Shown here: positions 23,667 to 50,060 of the stretch, piece by piece
Layout of the letters: each line of letters begins with the position of its first letter
How positions within the stretch are numbered: the stretch's first letter is position 1
Assembly (NCBI GenBank): GCA_964106915.2
Contig: OZ066922.1
Strand: one strand, 5' to 3'
Source of the DNA: Podarcis gaigeae
Taxonomy: Eukaryota
Length of the DNA stretch: 64,000 nucleotides
Notes under the pieces: generated by a model
What the model was told of the DNA's origin: nothing
Database searches by the model: none
What the model saw: the letters and a program-made list of their open reading frames with translations, nothing else
Position numbers and translations under genes: made by a program

Positions 23667-24074
23667 TGTGATGGGATAATGAGCTGCTTGTGCGTAAAAG
23701 CTTGATCCCTCTGGGGTTTGGCTGGTCACCCAAACCTAGGCACTAACGGAGCCCCCAAAGCATGACTCCGTCAGTCGCTGGTAGAATCCGACAGTGGGCG
23801 TCTACGGAACTTACTCCAACATAAAAGTTGTTTGACGGACATGCGCCTCCTGGACTCTCTGCGTGACAGCTTCCGGCGAGGGGTGGGGGTTGCTAAAGGG
23901 GGTCTTGTTACCTCCTCACTGTTCTCACTAGAAGTATCCCAGAGCCTCTCCCCCGATTCCCTTTCCGCTGGAACTCCTGCTCTCCCCCTACTGGTTCCTT
24001 CTTCTGCTGTAGAGTCTCTCCTATTCTTCTGGAGCCTCTCCACCACCTGTCCCTCCGATGGCAGTTCCCTGACA
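23667..24074 (-). mobile_element. Solo LTR-like element (408 bp) containing a 100-codon open frame
   Basis: TG…CA termini; perfect 5-bp TSD GATAG (23662-23666, 24075-24079); CpG-rich. No AATAAA seen on the minus strand. Confidence 0.8.
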
Positions 24075-25911
24075 GATAGCTTTACGTAGTGGGAAGATAT
24101 AGGCAGAGTACATGTGCTGTGTCCCAAATTCAGCTCCTGGCATCTCCAGCTAAAGGACCAGGTAGCAGATGATGGCAAAAATCTTAGATGCTGGAAAGCT
24201 ACTGCCAATCCAAGTAGAAAATACTGCCCCAGGTGGACCAAGGATCCAGCTGAATAGAGGGTAGATTCCTATATAATGTTCCAGGACCTAGCACAGGGAT
24301 GAGATTGTGCTCTAACAATGAAATTAAATGACTTGTTTCCTTTCCCAGGAAACATTGTTTCAACTTATTCATAGAGAAACACTTGTTTCTCATACAGTTT
24401 GTTTAAGAAAATGTTCCCAGAATAGTCTTCTCAGACTACTACAGTACACCTGTAGAAATCAAAGTCTAGCATAGTCTCCCCCAAGATGATGTTGTCCAGA
24501 TTTCGTTGGACTACAACTCCCATAATTCCTTACCATGTTGGCTGGCTGGTGCTGATGGGATTTGTAGTCCAAATCATTTGGAGGGCACCAACTTATGGAA
24601 GGCTGGTCTAAGAGAAACCACATGGATATGCACCAGATATGACTCTTCTGGTGGTGGGCAGTAGCAGCTGGTGGGATGGCATGACTGGGGTGCTGCTGCT
24701 TTCCAGGCTTCCTGGCACTGTGGGTTGCTGACACTTGTGAGAGGGAGAAGGGGAGAGGAAAGGCATGGGGAGCTTGGTGCAACACGTGGCATCAAGAGCA
24801 TCAGATTGGCTGTGCTGCCACATGCCACACTGCACTGAGTTCCCTATGTCTCACCCCGCTCCCTCTCAGTGACTTGCAGTGTTGGGAAACCAGGAGAGCA
24901 ACAGAGCCCCACCTGTGCCACCCCACTGGCCACTGCTGTATGGAATATAAGGAGCAATGCTTTATACTACAAAGGGACTCAAATGTAACTCAGAAGTAGC
25001 TCATCCTCCAGGCCATGAACAGGCCAAAGTACACCGTGTTTTGCCATCTGTGAGCTGGCAGTACCAGAGCCTGAGTGGCGTCAAAACAGCTGTGTTATTG
25101 AAAGGCAAGCAGGACATGCAAGGGAATGTACTTAGTCTTTTATTCATATAAATGCAATTGATTGTAGTCAACAACTTAAAGTAGGGCGTGATATCTGTGG
25201 AACAGCCTGAGCATCTGGCCTTGACATCTTCTAGTTTCAAATTTCCATACATCACTTCCAATCTATTTTATACTGACATTTGGTTGGAGGATTGTCTGCT
25301 TCCAAAAGCTGGATGTTTGCCCACCTGGTGGCAAGAGAACTTTGTGGGGAGAGCCAGAAGAACAGCAGCTAGGCCTGCAAAGGGAAATATAGGGAGCATA
25401 TGGTTGGGCAAAATTCCTGTACCTTGGACAGACGGAGACTTGTTCTGGGAGGCTCCAGCATCTATGGGCCTGAAACTGAACAGTATATATATTTTTCAGC
25501 TTAGATTTTTCCATTAACACATTAGAAAAGCTCTCACTAATGAATGGCCCAGTCTGCCTAATGAGTTTCCTGTCCCCACCCTTCAACTTCATATTTGTCT
25601 TCTCCCAGACAAGACATGGAAGCATTTTTAATAAGAAACTATCAAGGAAGTGTTGCATTTACATCCATAGATAAGTCCTATTTATCTATATATTACGTAA
25701 TAACAATTTAGACATTGCCAAAAAAAAAAGAAGAAAAGCGTCACCAGAAATGAGAAGAAAGGAGGGTAGATTTGTGAGATTTTTGCATATGCTAATTTAT
25801 ATGTAGAAATGCAAATTTAGAAATAATCAATATTATGCCAGAGATAGTGGAGAAGACTGTGTGTCTGCTCAATCTGCTGTTCAGGTGCTAACTGTTGATG
25901 GGCATTTCCAC

Positions 25912-26135
25912 GAAGAGCCAGTTTGGTGTAGTGGTTAAGAGCGGTAGTTTCCGCTCCTCCACATGCAGCTGCTGGGTGACCTTGGGCCAGTCACACTTCT
26001 CTGATGTCTCTCAGCCCCACTCACCTCACAGACTGTTTGTTGTGGGGGAGGAAGAGAAAGGAGAATGTTAGCCGCTTTGAGACTCCTTCGGGTAGTGATA
26101 AAGCGGGATATCAAATCCAAACTCTTCTTCTCCTC
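25912..26135 (+). mobile_element. MIR/CORE-like tRNA SINE
   Basis: A-box TGGTGTAGTGGTTAAGAGC, core GGGTGACCTTGGGCCAGTCAC, CTT/CTC-rich tail. Confidence 0.75.
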
Positions 26136-28559
26136 CTCCTCCCTTTTATTATAGTTATTTACATTGAAATTGGATTTGACCTTCAATTAGATGATGCCTT
26201 CAAATAAAAAAAACTACCTTATGAGATATCTTCAAAAGAGACTAAATGCTTTTGTACACATATCAATTAGTGTAAAGGCACAACTAGATGTGATGCTGAA
26301 GTTCAGTTCTAGAACAAGAAGACTTCCCACCAACTTTCAAAAAGGCAATAGTAGCTACGTGGGTCCAAACAGGATCACAGCTGATAATGGGAGATAGGTG
26401 TGGTGGTCAACCCTTTCTTTCTGTCCTGTTTTCCCTATTAAAATTGCCTCTCCCAAAGCTGCTATTTGCCTTATGGGGGAAATCGTGCCATCATCACCCC
26501 AAGCCTGTCCTTCACTTAAAAAGCAAACAAGAGATCTTTATTACCCATCTCCCATGTGACATTTAGTATGGCCTTAACGTGGCATTTTCTTTAATGCTGG
26601 CATTTGGTGAACCAGATTGTTTAGTGAGAGCAATGTAACCCTCTACTGGAGTGCTAAATTATGCCTAGGAGACCTAAGTTCAAATCAAAAATTGCCCTTA
26701 ATGTTGCTGGTTATCTGTTAGCAGACCATTAGTCTCAGGATGAAGACATGCCCTACATTCCAAGTGTGGTGAAAATAGTATTGACGCAGATTCTCTGCCT
26801 TGAAAAACAAATGCCTCAGAATGTGGTGTATGTGTATTTAAACCACTCCTTCCATATTTTAGGTCCGTTTTCATCCAAACAGGCCTACAGTACAAAATAG
26901 GGACCAGAAATTCCTATACTGGAAAGAGATGGTGTGGAAGATAACAATAGTAAATATACTGCATATGAATATTTATGATTTATTATCAACACTCCATTAG
27001 GTTTTTAAAAGGTGAACTAGATCCATAATCATTCAGATTATTTTTTAAAAAGGTACGTATAATGATGTTCTAATGACTGCTGTGTCAACCAAACTGGAAA
27101 TAGAATATCAACAGCATTGTCTATTCTAATTTATGGCTTTTAAAATGTGTTTTGTGTCTCTCTGTGTATGACACAATTCAGGGACATAGGCTGCAGTTCT
27201 GTTCACTCTGACCTAGGAGTAAATCCTACTCAATTTAATAGGTCTTACTTCCAAGTAGACATTCAGAGACTCATTCTGTTGAGCTGCTTACCTGGGATTC
27301 AGCTCCATTGAACACAGTGGGGTTTACTTCTGCTCCTGTGTGTGCACAGCACTTTCCTGCTGCTTAATCTGAATTCACTTCAAGACAACCTGAGCATTCA
27401 TTGCACAAAGTTTGTGAGCATGTTGAATGAGAATTGCCATGTACTGAGCATTCATTCCTATTTGTTTCTAGATATATTAGAGGATGACACTTCTCAGTGC
27501 ATTTTCCCGACACTTTCTGCACCATAAAGTTCAATTTTTGGAGGAAGCAGGATTATTTTGCAAGAGCTCAAAAGCAAGTTTAATTTGTGCAGCCAGAATT
27601 TGTTGGCAAGTGTCGGAATCTTGGCCGAAAACAGGGACTGTCTGAAAGTGCCATGACTCATCATGGCCTTTCTTCTATGCCTTCAAAAGAAAGACAGGGA
27701 GATAGAAAACACTGGACATTACATATAATTTTAGATTAAAGAATATGATTTGAGTAACTTTATTTGGCTAGGATAACTTAACTTTATGAGACACCCTCAT
27801 TTTGTCTCTATAATCATGAGTATGTATTCATCACCACTCAACCATTGGCAGTTGGGTTAGTAAAGTAAGACTGGCACAGTTAGTACACAGTGTATTCTCC
27901 AAATGCAAACTCACAAAAGCACTATAGTCTCATTAGAGAGGGTCATGTTGCTGCCACCTGTCTGATGACAAAAAGGGGTTTAATCTATAATGGATAAGTA
28001 AGTTCTTGTAGACTCTCAGTCCCAATGCTATTTCTCATGGCTGCATGTCATCTATTTTATGTGAGCTTCTGATCCATTCTGACAAGATCTTATATATGTT
28101 GCCCATAAAGGTCAAAGCTGCTTCTCGCTGACAAATGAAAATATTGGTGTTTAGAAAAATGACACCCATAATAGGTTAATCTAATCTTTATCAGCCGAGT
28201 TTGATAGAATGTTCTCAAGAAATGACTGGGGATATTCATAGGAAGCACCACCAGGTTTCTGAAAAGCCTGGATCAAGTTTCCCTTTTTAAAGGCAATAAA
28301 GTTAATCAATGCAATGTCTGAAAAAAATATTGCAGGATCAAGGTGAATGGCAAGTTTTTAGAGTGATGGTTTTATTTTAAATTAGTCTATCCAAGTCTTT
28401 GCAAAACTGAGCCCTCATCAGTCAGGCTTTTCAGAACATCAGTTTTATATCTGTTGCGTGATAAAATAAATAAATTGAGGTGGATATTTTCATATACACT
28501 GGAAAACTTAGTCAAGTTTACAATAGCCCTTCAGAAATCTGTAGAGCATAGTTTTACCA

Positions 28560-28682
28560 GGCTGGATAGCTCAGTTGGTTGGAGAATGGTGTTGGCAGTG
28601 CCAAGGTTGCAGGTTTGATCCCCATATGGGACAGCTGCATTGTTGGGGGTTGGACTAGATGATCCTTAGGGTCCCTTCTAAG
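28560..28682 (+). mobile_element. Short tRNA-derived SINE with CR1-like tail
   Basis: A-box TAGCTCAGTTGG, B-box GGTTTGATCCC; tail GGGGTTGGACTAGATGATCCTTAGGGTCCCTTC matches the CR1 3' UTR at 8975-9030. Confidence 0.75.
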
Positions 28683-31601
28683 TGATGACACATGTAGTGC
28701 TTGACAAATCATGGTAATGAACTTGGTGAAACATCTAACACCAACTGGTGGAGGTGATTTGAGGTGCATCAAATTGCAATGACTATCAACTTGAACTGAG
28801 CTGCAACCACCTCCTGCATTTAAGTCATTCTAGTTCTGGACAATGAAATGAGAGGCATTGTACTCGACTTCAACCTACAGCCCAATCTACTGACACCCAT
28901 CTGGACCCTCTTAGCTTTCATTCTCAAACAAAGATGGCTTTCTTCTGTTCAGACCCCTGACATAAAGTTACAGCATCATAGGATAACAAGAAATCAGAAT
29001 CTGGAAAAAAAATATGTCTAAATGACAGATGGGAAGTAGGCTTGTTATCCATGAAGATTACTGTTAAAAAAGCAACACCTATAAAATTGTTATGCCCAGT
29101 TTAATTTGAAAATTGAGTCTTTATAGCATGTCGTGCAGTCATGTTTCTTGAAAAAGACAAGCAATGAGAAATTGTCCTCCTCTGCCTTCCTTCTGTCATC
29201 ACATTTCAACTTGATTTTGTGTAAAACAGTAAAATTATTTGATGAAATATTATACATTATAGAGGGTGCTAAGAAAATGTTGAAAATAAACTATGCCTCA
29301 TCTCTTTTAGGACTGAAGGTTGCGATATCCATAATTTTACATCTAACTGCAATTCATAAACATTTAAGAAGAAACAAAATATGGGGGCCAATTGAACAAT
29401 ACAAAATGACATCATTTATTGCCATACATAAACATATGCCAGCAGTTCAATTCTGAAATGACCTCCATGGCTGTGGAAATGCAGTTCCAGAGAGTACGCA
29501 CACATACAAACACACATGGCCCAAATGGATCTGAATACAGACACTGAGTTACACATGACAGCCACTTTATTGCAAGCTGTCTCAAAGCATCTGATTATTT
29601 AAATCCAGTTCAAGGGTATAGTGGCAATAGGGAACCCAACTGTATCAGCAATTTGTTTTTTTTGGGGGGGCAGTATATTCACTCTCATTCTAAGAGAATT
29701 CTGCAGGAATACACCTTTAGGGTCATGAACATTATAGCAGGAGTGAAGGAGAGGGTTCTGTGGCTCGTAGGAAAAAACAAGAATCAGCAATATTGCCATT
29801 GCAGTAGCTTGCTCCAAAACCTAGCGGTTAAGAGTCTCACAGATGCCATTTTGTATTGTATTGTAATCTGCGTTTTAATAAAGCGAAGTGACACACCACC
29901 AACTTCAGGCAATTTCAACCCCATCTTCTCCCCCTTTTACTGGCTTGAGAATTCAGTTCTTTCCTCATCAAACGAAGTGTCTAGATTCCAGTTGCTTTTT
30001 TAAAAAAAATAAACCACAATATATCCATATGGTAATAACAACGGCACTCTGAGGGGGTTTAGGACTGCAAGTTCCTTCCTTTGTCTCCCAGGCATTATAA
30101 TAAAACTAGAAGCTGAACTGGTCTCTGTTCAGCAAGAAAAAAACAGCAGTGAGAAAGTATGGATACCCAGCTGTGGGGAAAATTAAGCAATGAATTGAAA
30201 TAATGGTAGAAAATTACTCCAAATGAGCCTTGATCACAGCCACAAGGCTGAGAATCCCGAGCGCCATATTTGCATTCTCATGAATGTACATTAACGTATT
30301 GTTGTGTACCCCGGTCTTTAGTTGTGTATTAACTTTATCAGATTTAAGTGTTTGTGATACCTCACCAAGCATGAAATGTAGTTACTTGGTTGCACCTGTT
30401 CATAATAATCAGATTCCATATTCATGAAAGCAAAGAAATATGTTGAGCAGCCATATGCATGAAGAGTGATCATTACGACAGACTTTTCTCACAGCTTCCC
30501 AAATGTTGTTCTGGGAATGATTCACAGGCTGTGAGGAAGCAAGCACTTATTAAAAAGCAGAAGACACTTTGCAAAAAAATATGTCCAGGTGATTCTGATT
30601 CACTTAGTGAAGGTAATAAATTGCTGCCTTGTTTGCAGATGGGATGCCCCCTCTGCACAGTAATTAGGGATTATGCCAGGTGGAATAGAACACTACTTAA
30701 GGTGAAAAGTTCGTGTCAAATGACATGACAACTGTTCACTGATTTTGAAAGAGGAAGTGCCCCAGGGGAATGTACATACATACATTGCATGTTTTAAGAA
30801 CCTGATCTTTACAAAGTCTGATCTGAACTTACCTGACCTGAGTTATTCAGCAGGGTTTGGGATTGTCCATTTTAACTCCTGCCTCACAAAACATATAGAA
30901 TACATTTTGAAAATGAGTATATTTTAAGAGTAAACACATTTAGAAATGCATGTTCTGAGAGAAAACATGTTTAAAAGTACATATGAAAGCATGTATATAA
31001 CTATGAATTTCCGTGAAGATTCTTTTTAAAAATTCAGATTAAACTGAAAAAGAGAGAACAGAATGAATTTGTAAGTGTATAAATGAACAATTGAGGCTGA
31101 ACTTGTGCTCATATACTAGGAAATAAAGAAATAAATGGAAAATGTTGATGGGTTGATTAGCACCATATCACACCCCACAAGTGTCCCAGAAAAAAAAATG
31201 TGACATGTTGTGTTGTTTTTTTATCACAAGAGAATGGCATTCATGTGGTTGCTGTGATCTCACACTACACCCCCCCCCCCGAATAAAGGGATTTCACACA
31301 CCATTCCTGAAAAAGCACTTTTGAGGGGAGAACCACAGCATGAAATTGCTCAAGATCATGGGAAACAAAATGTCCACTGTGCTCTCCTAATAATAAATAA
31401 ATAAATAAATAAATAAATAGGAAGATGACATCCTGGATGTGGGCTTCAAAGTGTTGGAGAGTATGCCATATTTATTCCCATTTCTTTATCAACCCCAGTC
31501 CCTTTGCCGCTGTGGAGATCTAAATGGGTAAATATCTCACAATGGCATGAAGATCAAGGGGTAGTCAAAATCAGAGCCCTTTGAAAGGTTTGCCAATGTT
31601 T

Positions 31602-32395
31602 TAGTGGTTAGAGTGCTGGACTAGGACATGGGAGTTCAAATCGCCACTCAGCCATGAAGCTCACTGGGTGACCCTGGCCAAGCTTGTTGTTGTTGTTTAG
31701 TCGTTTAGTCGTGTCCAACTCTTCATGACCCCATGGACCAGAGCACGCCAGGCACTCCTGTCTTCCACTGCCTCCCACAGTTTGGTCAAGCTCATGCTGG
31801 TAGCTTCGAGAACACTGTCCAACCATCTTGTCCTCTGTCGTCCCCTTCTCCTTGTGCCCTCAATCTTTCCCAACATCAGGGTCTTTTCCAGGGAGTCTTC
31901 TCTTCTCATGAGGTGGCCAAAGTATTGGAGCCTCAGCTTCACGATCTGTCCTTCTAGTGAGCACTCAGGGCTAATTTCCTTCAGAATAGATAGGTTTGAT
32001 CTTCTTGCAGTCCATGGGACTCTCAAGAGTCTCCTCCAGCACCATAATTCAAAAACATCAATTCTTTAGCGATCAGCCTTCTTTATGGTCCAGCTCTCAC
32101 TTCCATACAGCACTACTGGGAAAACCATAGCTTTAACTATATGGACCTTTGTTGGCAAGGAGATTTCTCTGCTTTTTTAAGATGTTGTCTAGGTTTATCA
32201 TTGCTTTCCTCCCAAGAAGCAGGCATTTTTTAATTTTGTGACTGCTGTCACCATCTGCAGTGACCTGGCCAAGCTACTCTCAGACTAACGTATCTCACAG
32301 GGTTGTTGTGGGGATTAAATGAGGAGGAGAAGCATGTCCACCATCTTGAGCTCTGGATAAAAGGTGGCACATTAATGCAATAAATAAAATAAATA
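31602..32395 (+). mobile_element. MIR/CORE-like SINE split by a Bov-B insertion
   Basis: Head TAGTGGTTAGAGTGCTGGAC…GGGTGACC; resumes at 32276 …CTCACAGGGTTGTTGTG…; AATA tail. Confidence 0.75.
31685..32263 (-). mobile_element. Bov-B (RTE) LINE, 5'-truncated
   Basis: RVPWTARRSNLSILKEISPECSLEG…KLRLQYFGHLMRREDSLEKTLMLGKIEG…; (CAA)n tail; 12-bp TSD CCTGGCCAAGCT 31673-31684 / 32264-32275. Confidence 0.95.
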
Positions 32396-33797
32396 TGTTC
32401 TGCCCAACAGCTTTACGGCAGCTTTTTCCATACCCTTAACATTAATGAAACCTTCAAAGACACTGGATTCTAGCCTGGTTTTCATCTCGCTATGGGTATC
32501 TCAGGTGAGAATACAGGCTTTGGGAACAGTTAAAATTGGCTGCACCACCCCCAGCACCCCAACTTCTCCACCATTCTTGTGGGTTTGAAATAGTAAAACT
32601 TCAATATTAAAAAAAAAAAAAAAACATTTCCAGTGACTGCAGTGCTCTACTTCTGTCATGGGTAAGTCCTGTTTGTCTGAAAAGCTATTAATGCGGTGTC
32701 ATATTTTAATTATGTACGATTTGTGCAACATGATTCCGTAGTTCAAACTCAAAAATCATTAACCTGCATAATGGAGAAAATGTCACCAGAGTATACATGA
32801 GTGAAAGCAAACATGTCCGGATTTCTCAGGAAACTGCTAATTCTTTTTGATAAGGTTTCAGGATATAATAAGTAGCTAGGATTGGAAGTCAAGATGTGGT
32901 ATCTGCTGCTTTGCTTGCAGAGCCGATTCACAAAGCCACTGTAAATGGAAGTTATAAATAAAGTTACCTTATTTATAGCAATGTACAACACATCTCCTTG
33001 ATAGTTGTTTTTTTACTGTGCGACACTGGTGAGAGCCAGTTCAAGTTACTGAAGTGCCATGATAGATGCTTCCCTGTGGCTTCATCCCAGGTTGGAGAAG
33101 AACAAATAATATGAGGGCTAATTCAGCTTCCATTGACATTTTGTTTTTGTTTTTTTATGGAGTACACCATCTAAAACTGATCTCTAGTTTTGCTAATAAA
33201 AACATTTCTGTGTTTCTCTTTACTGCTGTTCTCTGCTGCAAGGAATACTGGCATCAGTGAGGTCTGAGTGAAGACACTGTTTGCATGGGGGACTGTTGGA
33301 AGCTACCCACCTGTCAATCACACAGACTCTGAAATCATTTTGGAGTCACATGATTAAGAGGGGGTTGCTCCACCAACCTGTCAAAAACCCTTGCATAGGG
33401 TTCTGAAGCACTTGACAACCATCTGGCTTGGGAACTTTCTCACAAGGCACCTTGCTAACTCTATGCTTGGTGTGGTGGAAAGTACTGAGTGTAGGGCTGG
33501 CTTCTTTCCTCCCTCACCATCAAGGCTGAAGGAGAAAGAAACCTGCATTTCATAGGCTTTGCTGCATGCAAAGGAAGTCCTGTGGGTAGGGGCAGCTAGA
33601 GGGATTTCTTACTTGCTTGTGGGGGTGGGAGACAGGACTGGTTTATTTGGTTGCGTATGCCTATTCTCAACTGGCAAAACTGTGTGGAATTTAATTCCCC
33701 TTCCAAATCTATGTTCCCTTCACAGAGCCACAAATTACAGAGTGATTTAACAATCAAGTCATCTTCCTAGGGATTCTAGCAAGTGTAGCTCTGTGAC

Positions 33798-34151
33798 GGG
33801 AATAGGGTGGCACTGTGGTCTAAACCACAGAGCCTAGGGCTTGCCAGTCGGAAGGTCGGCAGTTTGAATCCCCGCAAAGGGTGAGCTCAGTCCCTGCTCC
33901 TGCCAACCTAGCAGTTCGAAAGCACGTCATGTGCAAGTAGATAAATAGGTACCTCTCCGGCAGGAAGGTAAATGGCGTTTCTGTGCACTGCTCTGGTTCA
34001 CCAGAAGCGGCTTAGTCATGCTGGCCACATGACCTGGAAAAACTTTCTGCGGACAAACACAGGCCTTGGCCTATAGAGCGAGATGAGCATGCAACCTCAG
34101 AGTCATCCATGACTGGACCTAGTGGTCAGGGGTATGTTTACCTTTACCTTT
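33798..34151 (+). mobile_element. Sauria SINE, inserted in an old MITE (~33745-37295)
   Basis: Standard head, core and ACCTTT tail; the flanks match the uninterrupted MITE at ~61900-62058. Confidence 0.9.
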
Positions 34152-34513
34152 AACAACCCTCAACACCCTTAACTAACTACAGTTCCCAGGATACTTTGTG
34201 GGGAGTCACACCTGCTTAATGTAGTATAATATTAATTTATATTGTTATAAGTTGGGGGCGGGCAAGGCTTACCTAAAATATCTGGATTCCGTAAAGTAGT
34301 TAGAATTTAAGCAAACCCCACAATTTCTGGTTTTAGTCAATGTGGGACTTTAATCAATGGATTTAGCAGTGTGAAAATACAGGCTGGACTTGTTTTCCTG
34401 AACAGAGAATCACCTAGGAATGGGCCGCTATGAAACAAAGCCATTAAGAAAGTCTTCAACATGTCATAAGACTCTCTGCTGGGCACAGAGAGTTGACACC
34501 CTGCCCTAAATTC

Positions 34514-35546
34514 TAGATAGATAGATAGATAGATTCTTTATTGTCATTACACAAGTGCAACATTGCACAAGTGCAACGAAATTGGATGCCATCCCTTAAA
34601 AACAACAAAAGCAACACAACAACAACAACCAAACAAACCACATTCTAGCCACACCCACACCCACACCCATCAAACTCCCAGGTCACACTATCGAGTTACT
34701 GCATTTAAGAAGGCCACAGCTCTTGGATAGAAACTATTTTTCAGTCTATTTGTCCTTGACTTGATGTTTCTGTATCTCCTGCCAGAAGGCAGTAGTACAA
34801 ACAGACTGTGTCCCGGGTGAGATGCATCCTGCAGGATATTGTTTGCTTTCCTAAGACAACGGGAACCGTACAGTTCTTCCAAAGATGGGAGGGGATGACC
34901 AATAATCCTTTGGGCTGTGGTTATGACCTTCTGGAGCACCTTCCTCTTCCTAGCTGTACAGCTGGAGAACCAGGCACAAATACAGTATGTGAGAATGCTC
35001 TCTATGGAGCCTCGGTAGAAGGACACCAGCAGTCTCTCACTCAGATTGTTCTTCTTTAAAAGTCTGAGGAAATAAATTCTCTGCTGGGCCTTCTTCACCA
35101 GAGCAGTGGTATTTGCGCTCCAAGTCATGCCCTGATCGATAGTCACTCCCAAAAACCTGAATTCCGCCACCCTCTCCACCCGTTCCCCGTTGATATACAA
35201 GGGCTGAATGTCCGCCTTTTTTTTCCTGTAATCCACCACCAATTCCTTGGTCTTAGTCGTATTAAGAGCCAGATTGTTCTCTTCACACCAAGCACAAAGC
35301 CGCTCCACCTCCTGAAATGAGCCCCACCACCGTAGTGTCATCAGCAAACTTGATGATTTTGTTGCTGGAATAAATGGCTGTACAATCATACGTATAGAGA
35401 GTATAGAGCAGGGGACTCAACACACAACCCTGTGGTGAGCCGGTGTTAAGGCTAAGGGCTGTGGACATATGTGACCCTACTCTAACCCTCTGAGAACGTT
35501 CTGACAAAAAGTCCAAAACCCAGAGACAGGTGGAGTTGGTGGGTAA
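34514..35546 (-). mobile_element. Rex1/Babar-clade LINE, 5'-truncated RT, with a small internal deletion/frameshift
   Basis: TGSPQGCVLSPLLYTLYT, IKFADDTTVVGLIS, WCEENNLALNTTKTKELVVD, FRFLGV, KKAQQRIYFLR, LLPSGRRYR…KNSFYPRA; 3' end AATGACAATAAAG + (TATC)n. Confidence 0.9.
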
Positions 35547-35772
35547 TTAGCAAAAGATAATCCCAGATTTAGAAGGGAATTTTTTTCTAGGATTGCAGTG
35601 GGCAATGAGGTAAGCAAACAGGGGAAAAAATGTCCCTGAACACAAGGCAGACAGTCTGTTTTATGCTGCAGAGAAGGTCAGACATGATGCTTGGGGTCCC
35701 TTGAAATCTGAGGGTGCAGCAATAGGAGGAAGAGGACACCAGCTGTATATGTGTGTAAATAAACCATATATC

Positions 35773-37135
35773 AAATTATATTATGAAGTATCCTGTATCT
35801 GTTGGCTTAAAGAATGGATGAGTCTGAAGAATATCTTAGATCTGGAAGGTTATGATAATAGATTTGAGTGGCATACATATTTGTGGTATGAAAAAACGAG
35901 GGTGCATAAGGGCTTCTTGAATCATATTGCTAGATGATCATTATACTCTATATGGGTAAAGTATAGGAATCTATTAGAAAAGAAGACCCCATGGTGAATA
36001 TCACCACTAAAAATGTTCTCAGCTAAGAAATTAAATATGGAAAAAGAATGGATAACATATAGAGAGTTGTGGGTGGAGGAGGGAAATCAGAAACTGAAAA
36101 AATATGAGAATATAAGATATTTACTTACTGATTGGCTCCAATATCATCAACTAAATGATATTTTTTTAAATGGATAAAGGAGTGGGGTTTAGGAATGAAT
36201 TATCAAGATTACAAAAAGATCTCTTGGAAAACAATGAAAAGGTTCTGTCAAAAGTATATAAAATGTTGCTGGAACGGGAGACAAAAGATGAAGTAAAATC
36301 GGTAATGATACACTGGGCAAAAGATGTGGGTCATAATATAAAGTTTGATTCATGGGGAAAGTTGTGGAAAGTGGACCTACAATTTACTGCTTGCTGTTTG
36401 TTAAAAGAGAATTATATGAAAATGATGAACTTAACTCCTACAAGAATTGCAAACAATGTATTTAAAAATGTCTGATTTATGTTGGAAATGTAAAGAGAAT
36501 GAGGGTATATTTTATCATATATGGTGGACCTGTGAATCAGCAAAGGCCTTCTGGGAAATGAAGTACAATGAGCTAAAAAAAATGTTTAAAATATCTTTTG
36601 TTTAAAAAACCCAGAGGCTTTTCTATTAGGTATAATAGGAGAAGAAATACCGAAGGAGAAAAAGGTCCTATTTATTTATGCGATGACAGTGGCAAGAATG
36701 TTATATGCCATGGGATGGAATGAAGGAAGAACTCCATAGAAAGAAGAATGGATATTGAAACTGATGCACTATGCTGAAATGGCAAAATTGACCAGGAAGA
36801 TTAGACACCAAGAGGACAATAAATTTAGAAATGAATGGATTAATTTTATAGAATATATGACGGAGTATTGTAAACATTTAAAAACGTTAGCAGGATTGGA
36901 TTAGCACTTGTAATATCATTTGATAGAGGGTATTGAAAAAGGAGATTTAATAGTTTGGATAAAAGTGTTTAGTCGCAGAAAAGAGAAGAGACAATTATTA
37001 GAAACTGGGAAGAGGAGTGGGGGTGGGAGTCTGGGGATCGGAAAACCCCTATAAAGATACTGAATTTGTTTATGCATTAATGCCAATAATACTGTATGTT
37101 AAAAAAAAAAGTAAAATAATATATATATAAATAAA
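35773..37135 (+). mobile_element. L1-clade LINE 3' fragment
   Basis: KLYYE…WLKEW…DLEG…WHTYLWY; VKSVMIHWAKD…LKENYMKM; CWKC…HIWWTC. 17-bp TSD TAAATAAACCATATATC 35756-35772 / 37136-37152. Confidence 0.9.
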
Positions 37136-37885
37136 TAAATAAACCATATATCCTAAAGACACCATAGACTCTGCTGTGCCTCATTGTCCCAAATGGGAAC
37201 ATAGACCTTGGTAAGCATGCCTGCAACCCCTAGAATCTCACACTACTCGTGGAGATTGGGGTGACGTGTAACAATATGTATAGGTCAGAAGGGGTCTATG
37301 TAGCATTTTTCTTTTCAGATTCCCTTGACAGTGGATGATTTCTTTTCTTCCTTGCCTCCCTTTTTCTTTTTGACACAGTTTCAGAAAATTGATTTGGAAT
37401 GTTTTCTGTCTAACACATGATCTTACACCAAAGCCTTGTACTCCTTAGCTTATTAGAAGCAGCAAGTATTTAGTGAAAATCTGAGACAGTTTGGTAGACT
37501 AATTATAACATGCCATTTCGATTCTCTGACATTATAGTTTGCTTGAAGGCGGGTATTCACAGCAAGGGAAAACAATTAGATACCACAATATTACAACACC
37601 AACTCACCAACTCGTCTCTTTTGCGTCACTTTTAAAATAATGTGCTATTAAAATCATATGTAATTCAGATAGCAAACTTTGGATTCAGATTTCTGTGGGA
37701 CTAAAGTGTAAAGCAGGCCCTGTTATATTTTTTTAAAACTTCCTATAGTTTCAGAAGGCCTGTCCTCTATGTCCTAGTTAGATCTCAAATTACCTTGTTC
37801 CTTTTCGGTATCTTCCCTTGTATTTTTGTAGGATATTACATGCAACTGAATGTCTGAAGCAACCCTCGGGCAGAGAGCCAATTCT

Positions 37886-37886
<1 letters not shown>

Positions 37887-37925
<39 letters not shown>
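37887..37925. repeat. (AC)n microsatellite
   Basis: Dinucleotide run. Confidence 0.95.
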
Positions 37926-37928
<3 letters not shown>

Positions 37929-38609
37929 AATGGAGGAAATGAAACTCCATGGATGCTCCTACTACTTGATGACGTTTACATGGATCATTTTAAACCACAT
38001 TCTCAACATATTATGAGTGGAGAACCTTGTTTTCTCTGAATAGTGATTGTCCCATGGGAAAGGACAGTTGGGATCTGTGTGCAATGGTGGGTGGAACAAG
38101 GTCCAATGATGGGCAGAGACACTCGTTTTCTTTTTCTATCACCACTTCTTCTCAGCATCACTTTTCAGCCATTTTTCAGACTGTCCATCTAGGCTTCATC
38201 TCTATGTTCACTTCATCTGTATGGTCACTTCATCTCTATGGCTAGATTGCTCATCCCCGCCCCCCCTAACCAGAGTTATCTTTCCATATAAGGAGAAGCT
38301 GTAGGCAGAGAAAACAGCAGCAGTTGAGCAGCAAAGGATAACGTGTGTGGAAGGGATTCAGGAAGAAGCAATATCTCTGAGCCAAGAGGGGAAGGCAGTG
38401 GTGGGGTCTGTTGTGGGGCAGTTGTGGAGGGAGGGCTGTCATGAGGAAGCAGCAAATGACTGAGTGACAGCAACTGTGGTGAGGAGAGGCAGTGAAAAAG
38501 TGGCTATTTCCCACCCTGAGTGGGTACTGAGAGGGAAGCAGGTATCATGCTCCAGGAAAATGGCTGATGGGCTAAGGTTCTAGTTACAGGAGTTATAAGC
38601 CTTTGCCAA

Positions 38610-39015
38610 TGTACTCACCAATGAGGTCAGGGTTACAGATGCAGCACAGTCCAAACAAGCCAAGGGTCAAGCACAAAGTATCAGTCGAGGTCCAAACGTG
38701 AGCCAGAAACAGTTCAAGATCAAAATCACAGAAAGTCCTGCCAAGGTACAACACAGCAAGACAAGGAAACTAGTATCAGGAATGAGGAGCCAGAGACTAG
38801 TTTTGTTTCCACCAACTGGAAGGCTCAGTAGTTCCTGGCCATTCCAGGGGTTCCCCATCATGTATCAATTCAGAGAGCTCCTCAGGGGAATTCTCTGCAT
38901 TGGACTCAGGGGGCCCTGGCTGTTCCTCAAAGCCATCTACCTGTGGGGTGACTGATTCACCCTCTGATCCAATCAATTCATCCATGAATTATTCAGGCCA
39001 GAAATAGGCATGACA
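38610..39015 (-). mobile_element. Probable decayed solo LTR with an acidic reading frame
   Basis: Minus strand begins TGTCATG; acidic ORF MDELIGSEGES…EELSE (38797-38985); left boundary and TSD (CCAA?) uncertain. Confidence 0.45.
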
Positions 39016-39329
39016 CCAAGTGAGAAGAAAATTGGAAAAGCACCAGAGTGATGTTGTGATTCACATAAAATTTGGCTGAGGGCTATGTGCAGCCTGCAGA
39101 CTGAGGGTTCTCTATCCAAGATCTGTATCTGTCTTTGACCCAGAGAAGTTTGCCTTACTTTTGCCCATAATAGAAGTATATTTAAAAATAATATTATTGG
39201 TTTGGATTTTTCAGATCACTAACATAACCCTCCCCACCAACCCCCCCCCCCCATTAATAACCTTAATAATTCTAGTATTTCTTTCTAGAAATTCAATCTT
39301 GCCATTTCCCAGCTGCTATACATACCACC

Positions 39330-39692
39330 GGACGCAGGTGGCGCTGTGGGTTAAAGCCTCAGCGCCTAGGACTTGCCGATCAAAAGGTCGGCGGTTCGAA
39401 TCCCTGCGGCGGGGTGCGCTCCCGCTGCTCGGTCCCAGCGCCTGCCAACCTAGCAGTTCGAAAGCACCTCCGGGTGCAAGTAGATAAATAGGGACCGCTT
39501 ACCAGCGGGAAGGTAAACGGCGTTTCCGTGTGCGGCTCTGGCTCGCCAGATGCAGCTTTGTCACGCTGGCCACGTGACCCGGAAGTGTCTCCGGACAGCG
39601 CTGGCCCCTGGCCTCTTGAGTGAGATGGGCGCACAACCCCAGAGTCTGGCAAGACTGGCCCGTACGGGCAGGGGTACCTTTACCTTTACCTT
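39330..39692 (+). mobile_element. Sauria SINE, young subfamily, full length
   Basis: 13-bp TSD TATACATACCACC 39317-39329 / 39693-39705; CpGs retained. Confidence 0.95.
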
Positions 39693-40149
39693 TATACATA
39701 CCACCAAATTGGTTTTGACAATTTAAGATTAATATAAAATGTAGGTTGCTAACACATGACAGAGCCCAAAGCTGGAGTGTTGGGAATATTTAACTCAAGC
39801 AGAAATTGCCCCAACAGCAAGACATCTGATTCTTCATGGATTCATGGAAACATCTGTCTTAGTGCTGTTGTTTACATCCCTTGAAGACAGAAGTCAAGCA
39901 AGTGACACAGGCTGTTTCATCACAGCAGAATGATCCGAGAATGGCTAAACAGGCAAGAGAGAACAGAAGGTTTGGGTGAAGTGTCTGATGCAGAAATGTT
40001 AGTGTACATCTTGGAGATAAATTGGATAAAGGAGACAAGCTACTCTTGAAATAGGACATTACTTACATCATATAAGTTGCTATAGCAGTGGTGGCTGGGG
40101 TGGGGTGGAGACAAGCACCATTTCAAAAAGGAAAGTCAATAGAAAATCA

Positions 40150-40530
40150 TAAACATTGACAAGGCAACACTACATTGCCACAAGTTTGCAAGATCACTGC
40201 AATAAACTACTATGACCATAAGGATAGACAAAAGCTATGGAGCTAAATGCACATGATTAACGATAGCCTCTAGTTAGATTACCTTTTAAAAGTATGCAAC
40301 AAATTTATGAGGGATAGGTCTTATTAATGGCAATTAAACACAACAGCTTGATTAAATGTCAATCTTCAGAGGAAGCAGATCCTGAATACCAAAGGCTGGG
40401 GGCAAATAAGAGAAGAAGGCTCCTGGCCTTCTCAGTTGTCTTGTTTGCTTGCTGGAGACTGCTAGTTGCTTGTTGCTGGAAACAGAATGCTGGCGTACCT
40501 TTGGTCTGATCCAGCAAGGTCTTCTATTTG
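40150..40530 (+). mobile_element. Decayed CR1 3' end
   Basis: Similar to 44090-44494, ending AACAGAATGCTGG…TTGGTCTGATCCAGCAAGG. Confidence 0.5.
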
Positions 40531-40651
40531 TGTGATCATACAGATTATACAGACGTGGGTGGCGCTGTGGTCTAAAACACAAAGCCTAGGGCTTCCTGAT
40601 CGGAAGGTCGCCATTCGAATCCCCGTGATGGGGTGAGCTCCCATTGCTCAG

Positions 40652-41466
40652 TGTCCAAGTGGTGTTCCCTCTTCGCAGTAACACTCCAGCACACGCAGTG
40701 TGATATTTACAGTCTTTATTAAAGGTAAAGGTACCCCTGCCCGTACGGGCCAGTCTTGACAGACTCTGGGGTTGTGCGCCCATCTCACTCAAGAGGCCGG
40801 GGGCCAGCGCTGTCCGGAGACACTTCCGGGTCACGTGGCCAGCGTGACATCGCTGCTCTGGCGAGCCAGAGCCGCACACGGAAACGCCGTTTACCTTCCC
40901 GCTAGTAAGCGGTCCCTATTTATCTACTTGCACCCAGGAGTGCTTTCGAACTACTAGGTTGGCAGGCGCTGGGACCGAACAACGGGAGCGGGGATTCAAA
41001 CCGCCAACCTTTCGATCGGCAAGCCCTAGACGCTGAGGCTTTTACCCACAGCGCCACCCGCGTCCGCCACAGTCTTTATTACATATATACATAAGAACAG
41101 CTACAGTTCAAAATCATGCATCCAAACGTGTCAAGTCAGATTCGGGGAGTGGCTTCTTTCAATTCTGGCACCAACAAAGAAGGCATGGAAACCTCATGAG
41201 ACGTCTTTGATCTTTACATTTCATTTCCCTTCTTGTCTGTGCTGATGTGAAGGCTCCCCCCCCCCCTTTCTGAGTCTGAACTTCCTTCTCCCAGCTCTGG
41301 TGGGTTATAGGGCTCTCCACCATCTCTGAACCCCTGCTCTGCCTGACTACTCTCCACCTGTTGTTCTGCTTCATACATCATTTCCCTCTCTTCCTCTTCT
41401 GACAGTTCCTGCTCCGAACCCTCCCCTGCTACTGATGAAGCAATGCGTTCTGGTTCTTCCCCGACA
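40652..41466 (-). mobile_element. Solo LTR (Gypsy-like) with acidic/basic reading frame, interrupted by a SINE
   Basis: TGTC…GACA termini; 5-bp TSD CTCAG (40647-40651, 41467-41471); AATAAA on the minus strand. Confidence 0.88.
40721..41068 (-). mobile_element. Sauria SINE, young subfamily, nested in the solo LTR
   Basis: 12-bp TSD ACAGTCTTTATT 40709-40720 / 41069-41080. Confidence 0.95.
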
Positions 41467-44089
41467 CTCAGTCCTAGCTCTTGCCTACCTAGCAGTTCGA
41501 AAGCACATCAAAGTGCAAGTAGATAAATAGGTATACCGCTCCGGCGGGAAGGTCAACAGCGTTTCCATGCGCTGCTCTGGTTTGCCAGAAGCAGCTTAGT
41601 CATGCTGGCCACATGACCCGGAAGCTGTACGCTGGCTGCCTCAGCCAGTAAAGCAAGATGGCGCCACAATCCCAGAGTCCTCTGCAACTGGACCTAACGG
41701 TCAGGGGTCCCTTTACCTTTACCTTTACCTTACAGATTATAGTTCCATTGTTCTTCCAATAACCGTTTCATGGCTTTGATGGATGCTTTGTCATAAATTA
41801 GAGGCTTAAAGCAGTGAGTGGCAACATGCACTCATATCCAAATTATAAATCTGATAGGAGCATGCTGCCCAACTCACACCATCCAGTTTAGGCAGAGACT
41901 GCACTGGATGCATTCCACCTGAATATGGATCCGTGTTTAACCTTCTAATGCAGTTATCAGTATGATGATGCAACCCATCTACCTATTCTCCATGCTGTTC
42001 TTCCTCATTAGTTTGGGACAACTATGTTTTGGCAACATTGATCAGACTTATGGGATTATTTTAATGATACAAAAATGATGGTGGCCATGGAGTAGGGCTC
42101 CTCAACTGGTGACTCTATGGCCAGTATACCGAACCTTAAGTTCTACTAGTTGTATCACCAGCCTAGGGATAAGGGAAGTGCTTGGCAGTAATGGTGGTTC
42201 CCACAATGGAATTAGCTGAGTAATTGCTGTGGGCCACCTCCCTCCATCACCACCTCAAATTGACTCTCCCATAAATCTCTCCCATTGCTGACCAGAGCAA
42301 TATAGTCATTGCAGGAAGTGGATGTCACATGAGTTAATCTTCTCCCAGATACCATCCCAAGAAAACTGCAGAGTTAGATATATGCTGTAGCACAGGGGTA
42401 GCCACTGTGATGGCCAATGGTCAGGGCTGAAGGAAACAGTAGTCAACAAAACCTTGAGGGCAGCATGTTGGATTCCCTTGCTGCACTGAAGCAGGTATAT
42501 TTGTACAGGACAGGATAAACAGCAGTTTTCTCCTGTGGTGCATTACTTCTTGCTTATACTACAACAAACAGTTATGACTTCAGCATAAATAATTACTTTT
42601 TTGTGCAGAAGCCACATTATGTAAGCTTCATTAACGGAGCATGTTCTTCTAAAGAAAGGACCACACAAGGCCAAGGCCAAGAGAGAGGTAACAGAAATAG
42701 CAATGAGGAAAGTATCATTTATTTGTTTGTTGTTTAGGAGAGCGGGGAGGGGAAAGACTTGTGCCAATATGTTTCGCTCCCCACCTCAATACTTAAGAAG
42801 CTTTTGGGCTTGAGGGTATTCAATATCTCTTACTGATTCTTACGTTATTGCATCTGAGATCAGAAAAGAAGCTCTGCAGGCAATAATGAATGGCAGCAAT
42901 AACAAAAAACAAAGAGACATGAAAGTGCAATCAGTCCACCCCATGGCTAAGTAATTGGCGCTGGAGACGTTATGATCACAAACGGCACAAATGAATCCAA
43001 CTTTCCCTAAAGCCTTATTATTTGACTGATCCCGTGTGACATTCTCCCCCTTTCCCTTTTAAGGATCAAAGGGGGAGGAGGAAGTTTGCTCCTCGGGGAT
43101 AATCTGAAATGCCCAAACATATTAGCAGAATCTTTGCATCCAAGCAGAGGGCACAGCTAATTATTCAAGGATCAATGGAAAATGCACAAATGTCGTTTCA
43201 TACAGTCACTTTGCATTTCGTTGTTGTCTTCTTGTGGACTTTGGGGAGTAGCTCTTCTCATGCAAACTGTTTACAACAAACAAATTACTGTAATAGACGC
43301 ATATTCACTAGCTATTCTTTGAAACATAAAGCCATGCAAAGTCTCCCCACCCCAAGCGCAAAGCCTTATGTACGTGGGGGTGGGGATGGCACACACACAC
43401 ACCCCTGCACTAATCAGATTTATATCCCACCCTTTTCCCCCAGGAGCCCAGTGCAGTGAACATAAAATTTCCTTCCTGTTTAATCCTCACAAAAACACTG
43501 CCAATGTAGATATTGCTGAGGAATGGCCATTGGCCAAACATCACCAACTGAGCTTCATAAGAGTCTGCATTATGAACATGGCCACTCTAGTGCATGTCTA
43601 CAGACGGGCTAGCACACCACATTGGCATTGATTTACATGTTGCCTTACCAGTGATGTAGTGGTGCAGGAACACGGGGTTGGGGTGGGAGGTGGGCAAGAC
43701 CCATTACTATTTATGCAACAGGGTGCTCCCTTGAGCATCCTAGGGCCATTCAATAATAATGAAAAGGGAGCTCTTTAGCCAATGTTCTCTTTACCCTTTT
43801 TCTCAAGGTGAATCCTTTTCTTGGAGAATTGGAGGCTCTTAGGTGGTTGTGTTATGGTGTGCACCCATTTTGAGTCTGGACCAAACTTGAAGTGAGTTTC
43901 TTCAACTGGGGAAAGCCCATAGCTCAGTGGTGGAGCACATTATTTGTATGGGAATAGTCCCAAGTTCAATCTCCAGAGTGTTTTGGGAAAGAAAAAAAAT
44001 CAGTGGAAAGCAGCTGCAAGTCAGACTATACAATACTGAGTTTGATTAAATAATGGCCTAATTCTATATAAGGCAACTTCCCAAGTTAC

Positions 44090-45310
44090 TTAGTTTAATT
44101 GTGTATGGCATGCAGAAATTGGATAGAGAAAAGATTTTCTCACTGTCTCCTAGAACTTGGTGGATCCCATGAAGTTCAATGCTGGAAGATTGAAGATAGA
44201 CAAATGAAAGAACTTCTTCACACAATGCATAGTTATACTATGGAATTTGCTCCCATAAGTGACAGTGATGGCTATCAATTTGGAGGGCTTTAAAAGACGA
44301 TTCAAAAAATTCATGGAGGTGAAGGTTATCAAATAGCCATGATGCTCTGCCTCCACAGCTGGAAGCAGGATGTATCTGAATATCAGCTGCTGGAAACCAC
44401 AGGGAGAGTGCTGTTTCCTTCAAGGCCTGCTTTGAGGCTTCTCATTGGCATCTGGTTGACCACAGGATACTGTCTGAGAACAGAATGCTGGACTAGCCTG
44501 ATGCAATATCAACAACCTCAGATATGCAGATGACACAACCTTGATGGCAGAAAGTGATGAGGAATTAAAGAACCCTTTAATGAGGGTGAAAGAGGAGAGT
44601 GCAAAATATGGTCTGAAGCTCAACATCAAAAAAAACCAAAGATCATGGCCACTGGTTCCATCACCTCCTGGCAAATAGAAGGGGAAGAAATGGAGGCAGG
44701 GAGAGATTTTACTTTCTTGGGCTCCATGATCACTGCAGATGGTGACAGTCTTGGGAGAAAAGCAATGACAAACCTATACAGCATCTTAAAAAGCAGAGAC
44801 ATAACCTTGCCAACAAAGGTCCGTATAGTTAAAGCTATGGTTTTCCCAGTAGTGATATATGGAAGTGAGAGCTGGACCATAAAGAAGGCTGATCACCAAA
44901 GAACTGATGTTTTTGAATTATGGTGCTGGAGGAGACTCTTGAGAGTCCCATGGACTGCAAGAAGATCAAACCTCTCTATTCTTAAGTAAATCAGCCCTGA
45001 GTACTCACTAGAAGGACAGATCGTGAAGCTGAGGCTCCAATACTTTGGCCACCTCATGAGAAGAGAAGACTCCCTGGAAAAGACCCTGATGTTGGGAAAG
45101 ATTGAGGGCACAAGGAGAAGGGGACGACAGAGGATGAGATGGTTGGACAGTGTTCTCGAAACTACTAGCATGAGTATAACCAAACTGCGGGAGGCATTGG
45201 AAGACAGGAGTGCCTGGCGTGCTCTGGTCCATGGGGTCATGAAGAGTCGGACACGACTAAATGACTAAAGAACAACAGCCTGATGCAGCAGGACCATTCT
45301 TAATGTCTTA
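44090..45310 (+). mobile_element. Old CR1 LINE 3' end split by Bov-B
   Basis: Decayed RT-GH-KL…FFTQ…WNLLP coding remnant plus 3' UTR, which resumes after 45287 and ends TTCTTAATGTCTTA. Confidence 0.7.
44506..45276 (+). mobile_element. Bov-B (RTE) LINE, 5'-truncated
   Basis: NLRYADDTTLMAES, FTFLGSMIT, TKVRIVKAMVFPVVIYGSESWT, FELWCWRRLLRVPWTARRSN; in-frame stop and frameshift; 11-bp TSD AGCCTGATGCA 44495-44505 / 45277-45287. Confidence 0.95.
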
Positions 45311-49417: not shown

Positions 49418-49500
49418 CTTTCGTAGATTTTCACGGGTACAGGAATGCAGGTTTTGGTGTCCTCGGGTGTCTTCCCGTGTAAAAGTTGGGGTGTCTAGGC

Positions 49501-49534
49501 GACGTTTCGACGAGGTCTCACTCGTCATCTTCAG
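49501..49534 (-). ncRNA. Minimal type I hammerhead ribozyme motif (mirror copy)
   Basis: Exact reverse complement of 49945-49978. Confidence 0.75.
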
Positions 49535-49944
49535 GCTGGTGCTTTCGGCTTCTTGTTACTGGAACAGAGCGGGATCTCAATGTTTGAGTTCCTATAAATA
49601 CTGTAGAGGGGGTGTGGTGTCTAGCCTCCAATGTTCTGGGCAGAGAGGAAGTTCCCAGGCTAGTGTGCCTTTTCTTCTTTTGTTCCTTAATTACTTGAGA
49701 GATACCTTGAGTAATCCACACCTAATGACCCACCTAAGTGGTACTCAGGATATCACTCAAGAAATCACTCAAGGTATCTCTCAAGTAATTAAGGAACAAA
49801 AGAAGAAAAGGCACACTAGCCTGGGAACTTCCTCTCTGCCCAGAACATTGGAGGCTAGACACCACACCCCCTCTACAGTATTTATAGGAACTCAAACATT
49901 GAGATCCCGCTCTGTTCCAGTAACAAGAAGCCGAAAGCACCAGC

Positions 49945-49978: not shown

Positions 49979-50029
49979 GCCTAGACACCCCAACTTTTAC
50001 ACGGGAAGACACCCGAGGACACCAAAACC

Positions 50030-50060
<31 letters not shown>

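What the first reader, a model, noticed from the sequence alone, without database searches (positions are those of the whole stretch)
23667..41466. Two divergent solo LTRs share a ~100-aa acidic-then-basic reading frame with an RR-x7-RR-x-M-x4-LLCW motif
Seen: LTR 23667-24074 (minus) is open for 100 codons from its 2nd base: VRELPSEG…SSENSEEVTRPPLATPTPRRKLSRRESRRRMSVKQLLCWSKF…. LTR 40652-41466 (minus), read from its 2nd base, gives VGEEPERIASSVAGEGSEQELSEEEERE…GEGSSDSERGGG. Removing one G from the G11 run (C11 at 41256-41266) continues it as AFTSAQTRREMKCKDQRRLMRFPCLLCWCQN, 101 codons in total. The two share frame phase, length, a V-x-E-x-P start and an ungapped alignment RRKLSRRESRRRMSVKQLLCW / RREMKCKDQRRLMRFPCLLCW, with little obvious nucleotide similarity elsewhere. 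Established: U3-overlapping ORFs exist in retroviruses (HIV nef, MMTV sag). Inference: with no start codon at the LTR edge, this is probably the C-terminal tail of an upstream ORF (pol or accessory) reading through the PPT into the 3' LTR of a lizard Gypsy-like lineage, with an acidic tract, an NLS-like basic helix and a conserved LLCW. I do not recognise the domain; whether it is undescribed needs a search.
Basis: partly seen in the sequence, partly recalled or inferred. Interest (0 to 1): 0.72.

Follow-up and report, generated by a model that had tools for sequence, protein, structure and literature searches.

The report
Integrase tail encoded inside lizard LTRs
These two leftover end-repeats of lizard jumping genes hold a reading frame that, in many full-length relatives, continues the integrase gene for about 100 more codons and is conserved at the amino-acid level in one group of families; together with a nearby motif resembling a LEDGF-binding signal, this tail likely helps steer where the element inserts.

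Summary
Both repeats are solo LTRs (5-bp target duplications) of self-priming Tf1/sushi-group chromoviruses of a lacertid lizard. The LTR frame is not a separate gene. In natural copies of several families Pol runs from the chromodomain through the polypurine tract, across U3, and stops in R (22 of 28 junctions in phase). In the LTR1 group the 35 codons before CW evolve with omega 0.16; third positions vary as freely as non-coding R/U5. Against: most copies of LTR1's own young family stop just before the PPT (21 of 30); LTR2's family shows no codon signal and its junction is shifted. LTR2's '101 codons' is an accident: the window copy has its own frameshift, an early stop and a nested SINE. 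Read-through into the 3' LTR is described for plant CRM and Galadriel elements; I did not find it described for vertebrate ones. New lead upstream of the LTR: acidic-FxGF motifs like LEDGF/HRP2-binding TIMs occur in the families whose chromodomain has lost its methyl-lysine cage. Verdict: new variant of a known kind.

The parts
23667..24074 (-). Solo LTR (408 bp) of young chromovirus family A, 5-bp target duplication
   Evidence: (2263 candidates, best 40 scored, all about 100% identical)
23771..24073 (-). 100-codon frame plus stop: distal tail of Pol/integrase, spanning U3 and ending in R
   Evidence: selection
23816..23878 (-). Basic run ending in LLCW (LLCW at 23827-23816); predicted short helix over the CW
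23785..23795 (-). 11-nt self-primer, complementary to the PBS of full-length copies; inferred transcript start; lies inside the frame
40652..41466 (-). Solo LTR of older family B (about 455 bp without the nested SINE), 5-bp target duplication
41114..41465 (-). Decayed tail frame of family B: frameshift at the G-run (41256-41266), LLCW at 41182-41171, copy-specific stop at 41161-41159, family stop at 41116-41114
41140..41150 (-). Self-primer position of LTR2 (inferred from a family copy with PBS, 2 mismatches of 11, and from related B' copies, 0-1 mismatches)
40722..41068 (-). SINE inserted into LTR2 at its poly(A) signal, 13-bp duplication (name Sauria SINE recalled)
40549..41732 (+). Older SINE copy split by LTR2, with its own flanking duplication

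Best explanation
The LTR frame is the last ~100 codons of the Pol/integrase gene of self-priming (Tf1/sushi-group) chromoviruses, read through the polypurine tract across U3 into R and kept by amino-acid-level selection in the LTR1 group, and it likely acts as a disordered accessory tail whose basic CW helix helps bring or tether the integration complex to chromatin. Shown: solo LTRs, element anatomy, in-frame fusion in natural copies, selection. Inferred: translation of the tail; disorder with one terminal helix (prediction); a short-linear-motif role (nuclear import or chromatin/DNA binding for the basic CW helix; LEDGF/HRP2-type tethering for the upstream FxGF motifs). The LTR-encoded part is likely accessory: family A's dominant form stops before it but keeps the FxGF motifs.
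For: Full-length 5.5-kb copies have gag-CCHC, RT, RNase H, integrase, SH3 and chromodomain. One of five such copies has a 1208-codon open frame ending at the LTR stop. With a query that ends before the LTR, 22 of 28 junctions (30 loci, 2 without junction) are in phase and 10 stay open over 200 nt into the LTR (many are family C). Single natural copies read chromodomain to LTR stop in families A, C, E, F. Podarcis muralis UniRef Pols P0001 and P0003 end with the same tail, P0002 with most of it, and unnamed P0074 ends in a diverged LLCW tail. Codon model on the ungapped 35 codons before CW, 13 subfamily representatives: omega 0.16, 2dlnL 112 against omega 1. DNA-only alignment of 10 representatives: steps per site at positions 1/2/3 are 1.14/0.49/2.17 there (p 0.0001), 0.66/0.80/2.18 in the chromodomain, 2.33/2.15/2.19 after the stop (p 0.59). 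Other sense frames give pairwise omega 1.06 and 1.31 over the whole frame. L and C codons vary silently. Family A's own lineage has pN/pS 0.38-0.43. AlphaFold: chromodomain confident, tail low-confidence, one helix over the CW.
Against: 21 of 30 family A copies stop just before the PPT, 2 run into another frame, 7 read through; 63 of 100 listed junctions share one modal run length of the stop-bearing class (hand count); in-frame copies are scattered on a star tree. So the most abundant young family mostly lacks the fusion. Family B (LTR2): no third-position excess among 29 copies (p 0.87); U3 length is a multiple of 3 in only 16 of 30 copies (9 of 18 with TSD support); the B junction (one duplicated insertion) and the one B' junction are both shifted. 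The N-terminal half of the LTR frame is weakly constrained (omega 0.41; periodicity p 0.054). From CW to the self-primer all codon positions are conserved (p 0.22), which fits a DNA/RNA constraint. Family D has GW in place of CW and U3 lengths out of phase in 2 of 3 copies. Representatives for the selection tests were chosen as open and CW-bearing, which makes the CW column and the gap lengths circular. Family A copies are enriched on a small repeat-rich contig (7 of 40, at least 16 of 100; 1.9% of the genome), which does not look like gene-body targeting, though retention confounds this.
Confidence: 0.78

Rival explanations
1. The frame is a by-product: U3 is purine-rich and poor in stops, and the conserved CW-to-stop stretch is a core promoter plus self-primer conserved as DNA/RNA.
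For: CW sits 20-23 nt upstream of the self-primer in five families; CW-to-self-primer shows no codon periodicity; PBS and self-primer change together; family B shows no signal; family A amplifies mostly without the fusion.
Against: Omega 0.16 and free third positions in the 35 codons upstream of CW; silent L and C codon changes; 1.1% of shuffles open; in-phase junctions.
Confidence: 0.08
2. Read-through is kept for an RNA reason (stop codon close to the poly(A) site, short 3' UTR, escape from nonsense-mediated decay) and the residues matter only loosely.
For: The stop lies in R in every open family; the N-terminal half varies in length and sequence. The NMD argument is recalled knowledge.
Against: It does not predict omega 0.16 or a kept C-W across families whose LTRs do not align as DNA; family A's dominant form has the early stop yet is abundant.
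Confidence: 0.08
3. The LTR frame is made separately from Pol in some families: by low-level ribosomal slippage on the G-run before the stop, or as a short peptide from an internal start.
For: All 6 shifted junctions and the modal family A form are shifted the same way and sit at G-runs; family A's LTR frame has pN/pS about 0.4. Slippage on G-strings is recalled, not tested.
Against: G-runs vary among copies in both directions, so the shift fits replication slippage; the only ATG in LTR1's frame is at codon 79 and is not conserved; the pN/pS can come from before the stop arose.
Confidence: 0.06

Closest known systems
Vertebrate chromoviruses of the Tf1/sushi group (V-clade: sushi-ichi, Amn-ichi/ni/san; PMC6317226 and bioRxiv 10.1101/2022.12.06.519325, passages read)
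   Same: Gag with CCHC, overlapping gag/pol frames, RT-RH-IN, C-terminal chromodomain, 11-nt self-priming PBS, 5-bp target duplication.
   Different: A 120-200 residue tail after the chromodomain, about 100 residues of it inside the LTR; most lizard families lack cage aromatics 1 and 3, which PMC3350952 (passages) reports only for plant elements; acidic-FxGF motifs absent from 55 public chromodomain proteins with an intact cage.
Plant CRM group A chromoviruses and Galadriel Bingo1-4, 7 (PMC3059260, PMC3605345; passages read)
   Same: Polyprotein frame extends through the PPT into the 3' LTR; in CRM the LTR-encoded CR motif is a putative targeting domain.
   Different: CRM uses a tRNA-Met PBS and has the CR motif in place of a chromodomain; here a chromodomain lies upstream and priming is self-priming. 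Sequence likeness to the CR motif was not tested.
TND-interacting motifs (TIMs) bound by LEDGF/HRP2 (PMC9987994 and bioRxiv 10.1101/624023, passages read)
   Same: Hydrophobic segment, S/T-bearing acidic linker of about 8-10 residues, then FxGF, in a disordered region, once or twice.
   Different: Described from cellular proteins; the review cites lentiviral integrase as the viral user of LEDGF and does not mention transposons (0 hits for 'transpos'). It lies upstream of the PPT, not in the LTR.
Retroviral U3-overlapping genes nef and sag (recalled, no call)
   Same: Coding sequence overlaps U3.
   Different: Those are separate genes with their own start; this frame is fused to Pol, and the 5.5-kb element has no further long frame.

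Membership tests
Tf1/sushi-group chromovirus | Ty3/gypsy Pol order RT-RNase H-integrase | tested here: met
   Pfam on L062 Pol
Tf1/sushi-group chromovirus | Chromodomain at the integrase C-terminus | tested here: met
   PF00385 in 25 of 25 members of A1; also upstream of a family B LTR
Tf1/sushi-group chromovirus | Self-priming PBS complementary to the 5' end of R | tested here: met
   11 of 11 in family A; eight different self-primer/PBS pairs match fully across A, C, F, B'; B copy 9 of 11, D copies 8-9 of 11; several decayed copies gave no full match
Tf1/sushi-group chromovirus | RT/IN phylogeny with sushi-ichi and Amn elements | not tested
   Only an integrase C-terminal tree with fish-type public proteins was built; reference elements were not at hand
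Group I retrotransposon chromodomain (typical of vertebrate chromoviruses) | Aromatic cage residues matching HP1 Y24, W45, Y48 | tested here: not met
   First and third missing in A, C, D, F, G, B'; kept in B (L213), E, H; one of two kept in I
CRM group A | [quoted passage not shown] | tested here: met
CRM group A | tRNA-Met PBS; CR motif in place of a chromodomain | tested here: not met
   Self-priming PBS and a Pfam chromodomain
CRM group A | Sequence similarity to the CR motif | not tested
   No CR motif sequences were fetched; Pfam gave no family for the LTR peptide
Retroviral U3 accessory gene (nef, sag) | Separate ORF with its own start codon | tested here: not met
   No conserved ATG; frame continuous with Pol
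LEDGF/HRP2-type TIM | FxGF motif | tested here: met
   85 of 93 distinct chromodomain-linked copies have one (16) or two (69); F and G codons vary silently
LEDGF/HRP2-type TIM | Acidic linker of 8-16 residues with S/T | tested here: met
   Alignment A1, read against the definition in PMC9987994
LEDGF/HRP2-type TIM | Obligate short alpha-helix before the linker | tested here: inconclusive
   Hydrophobic pattern present; the free-chain model has low confidence and no helix there
LEDGF/HRP2-type TIM | Measured binding to a TND | not testable with these tools
   Needs a bench assay

The most novel reading that the evidence does not exclude
Lizard chromoviruses have swapped their targeting system: they lost the chromodomain's methyl-lysine cage and gained one or two host-mimicking FxGF motifs that tether integrase to LEDGF/HRP2, converging on the host factor that HIV uses but through a linear motif, with a second, LTR-encoded basic CW motif that can be switched off by slippage at the G-run before the PPT.
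Probability: 0.35. Interest if true: 0.82.

Novelty: new variant of a known kind. Interest (0 to 1): 0.58.

Why it matters
It shows a vertebrate retrotransposon promoter region (U3) doubling as selected integrase coding sequence, a layout described so far in the papers I could read only for plant chromoviruses. It also yields a directly testable idea about how vertebrate chromoviruses choose insertion sites: the families that lost the histone-methyl cage carry motifs matching the published LEDGF/HRP2-binding pattern. If binding holds, a retrotransposon and lentiviruses would have reached the same chromatin tether independently, and young families with and without the LTR tail in one genome give a natural comparison.

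Tried and rejected
Complex prediction of a lizard LEDGF IBD (P0167, 400-487) with the first FxGF region (A1 residues 52-84): no answer (score 0.19, mark 0.34, alignments not used); not used for or against. Sequencing runs: no RNA holder listed. Contigs of four runs laid on one family A copy show run-length variants at the G-run with the reference form carrying most depth in X1/X2; contigs are weak and X1/X2 may be the source sample. Homologue search with a family B tail found nothing (394 candidates). The representative search found only P0004 across the LTR part; other listed hits match the chromodomain. Atlas searches blank. PDB profile and fold searches hit only chromodomain proteins in the rows shown. 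No intact full-length family B element was found among the regions fetched. Chance openness rejected. Separate accessory gene rejected. A folded LTR-encoded domain rejected. Gene-body enrichment could not be tested without annotation. Literature: nine searches gave no paper on LTR read-through in vertebrate chromoviruses or FxGF in a retrotransposon integrase; Butler et al. 2001 is not held, Repbase entries and all supplements were unseen, and any of them may describe the read-through.

Full report
Observation. LTR1 (23667-24074, minus) is a 408-bp TG..CA repeat with a 5-bp target duplication and a 100-codon frame from base 2. The frame is open in 1.1% of 5000 dinucleotide shuffles and in 30 of 30 copies from the DNA search. 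LTR2 (40652-41466) also has a 5-bp duplication but contains a SINE of about 350 bp and itself splits an older SINE (the name Sauria SINE is recalled). Its frame is broken at the G-run and has an early stop shared by 3 of 29 family copies; 23 of 29 read to the family stop or beyond. The peptide match between the two LTRs is significant (0 of 2000 shuffles) while their DNA is not alignable (best E 0.066).

What the elements are. LTR1 belongs to a young, abundant family A (2263 candidates). Paired LTRs 99.5-99.8% alike enclose elements of about 5.5 kb (4 of 5 fetched; one is shorter) with gag-CCHC and RT, RNase H, integrase, SH3 and chromodomain. The PBS is complementary over 11 nt to LTR positions 280-290. 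Eight different self-primer/PBS pairs match fully across families A, C, F and B'; B and D copies have 2-3 mismatches, and several decayed copies gave no full match. Self-priming marks the Tf1/sushi group (PMC6317226 and bioRxiv 10.1101/2022.12.06.519325, passages). LTR2 belongs to an older family B (84 candidates, 40 scored, 74-89% identical), linked to the same kind of gag/pol and chromodomain in decayed copies. The host is a lacertid by inference: a PSIP1 exon is identical to the Podarcis muralis entry and the closest named Pol proteins are from that species.

The frame is the tail of Pol. One of five full-length family A copies has a 1208-codon frame ending at the LTR stop. In family C, 21 of the 30 best hits read from chromodomain to the LTR stop (that query included the tail). 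With a query ending before the LTR, 22 of 28 junctions are in phase (30 loci, 2 without a junction, many from family C). Natural read-through copies also exist in families E and F, and family D reads through the PPT into the LTR in phase in 6 of 6 loci. UniRef Pol proteins P0001 and P0003 end in the same tail, unannotated, and unnamed P0074 ends in a diverged LLCW tail. The frame spans U3, includes the self-primer and stops in R.

Selection. For 13 subfamily representatives of the A/C group, the ungapped 35 codons before CW give omega 0.16, kappa 2.9, 2dlnL 112 against omega 1. On a DNA-only alignment of 10 representatives, third positions there change as often as non-coding R/U5 (2.17 against about 2.2 steps per site) while second positions change 0.49, as in the chromodomain. 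Alternative sense frames give omega above 1. L and C codons vary silently, and C-W followed by basic residues persists in A/C, B, B', E and F; D has G-W. Representatives were picked as open and CW-bearing, so the CW column and gap lengths are circular; the substitution pattern upstream is not forced by that choice.

Results against. In family A, 21 of 30 copies stop just before the PPT, 2 enter another frame and 7 read through. Of 115 pattern matches 100 were listed, and 63 share one modal length of the stop-bearing class (hand count). In-frame copies are scattered on a star-like tree, so the dominant source element likely had the stop. Its LTR frame still shows pN/pS 0.38-0.43 on its own lineage, which fits a recent disconnection. 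Family B shows no third-position excess (p 0.87), only 16 of 30 U3 lengths are multiples of three, and its junction and the one B' junction are shifted; its frame is homologous but selection on it is not shown. The first half of the LTR frame is weakly constrained, and CW-to-self-primer is conserved at all positions, so DNA/RNA constraint overlaps the end of the frame.

Mechanism. AlphaFold on 25 natural tails gives a confident chromodomain, a low-confidence tail and one short helix over the CW. Pfam finds nothing in the LTR part. I infer a disordered tail of short motifs. The terminal basic CW helix most likely aids nuclear entry or chromatin/DNA binding (NLS likeness recalled, untested) and is accessory. 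Upstream of the PPT, 85 of 93 distinct copies carry one or two motifs of hydrophobic segment, S/T-acidic linker and FxGF with silent variation. This fits the TIM definition in PMC9987994 (passages), where FxGF is tied to LEDGF and HRP2. Families with FxGF lack cage aromatics 1 and 3; families B, E and H keep them and lack FxGF; of 70 public proteins parsed (153 examined), none of 55 with both aromatics has FxGF. On the tree this is one to three events, so it is suggestive only. Enrichment of family A on a repeat-rich contig does not fit pure gene-body targeting but is confounded by retention.

Comparison and novelty. Extension of the polyprotein into the 3' LTR is described for plant CRM group A and some Galadriel elements (PMC3059260, PMC3605345; passages). 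Cage-less chromodomains are described as plant-only in PMC3350952 (passages). PMC3601003 (passages) treats Sushi LTRs with no mention of a reading frame. BioRxiv 10.1101/624023 (passages) confirms FxGF as the LEDGF-binding consensus. Nine searches found no report of the read-through in vertebrate chromoviruses or of FxGF in a retrotransposon integrase. Butler et al. 2001, Repbase and supplements were not seen and may bear on this. Earlier scan notes e1-9370618 (Sushi-group solo LTRs in this genome) and e1-7587238 (extra motif after a fungal chromodomain) are unchecked leads that agree with or parallel this reading.

Verdict. Member of the Tf1/sushi chromoviruses by the tested features (RT phylogeny not tested); works like plant CRM read-through but is not CRM; new variant of a known kind. 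Interest 0.58. The LEDGF-tether reading has probability about 0.35 and would deserve about 0.8.

Noticed in passing
L062 and relatives, between chromodomain and PPT (outside the window): One or two hydrophobic-acidic-FxGF motifs like LEDGF/HRP2-binding TIMs in 85 of 93 copies; present in families lacking chromodomain cage aromatics (A, C, D, F, G, B'), absent where the cage is kept (B, E, H) and in I. A, C, F, G form one clade, so this is one to three events, not six.
   Followed up: partly
Public proteins P0070, P0146 (Labeo rohita) and similar: Fish-type Pol tails end with a glycine run, a V and about 15-20 residues closing in SPE[FY]; this may be a short read-through into the LTR in the same phase. 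No DNA was available to check.
   Followed up: no
window 40722-41068; L037; L040: SINEs sit at the poly(A) signal of family B LTRs in at least 3 of 30 loci, two at the same site, one in the opposite orientation (output partly cut): a possible insertion hot spot.
   Followed up: no
G000 contig C32 (29.5 Mb): Holds 7 of 40 best family A LTR hits, at least 16 of 100 listed family A junctions and many older copies; possibly the W chromosome (inference).
   Followed up: no
L205, L213/L214, L217, L220, L222 and modal family A: Every shifted PPT junction is shifted the same way, as is the modal family A form.
   Followed up: partly
window 49445-49715 and 49764-50034: Perfect 271-nt inverted repeat with a 48-nt spacer; young foldback element or assembly artefact.
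   Followed up: no
window 31688-32177 and 44788-45277: 490-nt repeat in opposite orientations, 95% alike.
   Followed up: no
Family B LTR copies L031-L060, L151-L200: Open copies range from 86 to 127 codons through gain and loss of an acidic repeat unit; B and B' share LTR tails but differ in cage and FxGF state, which may mean recombination.
   Followed up: partly
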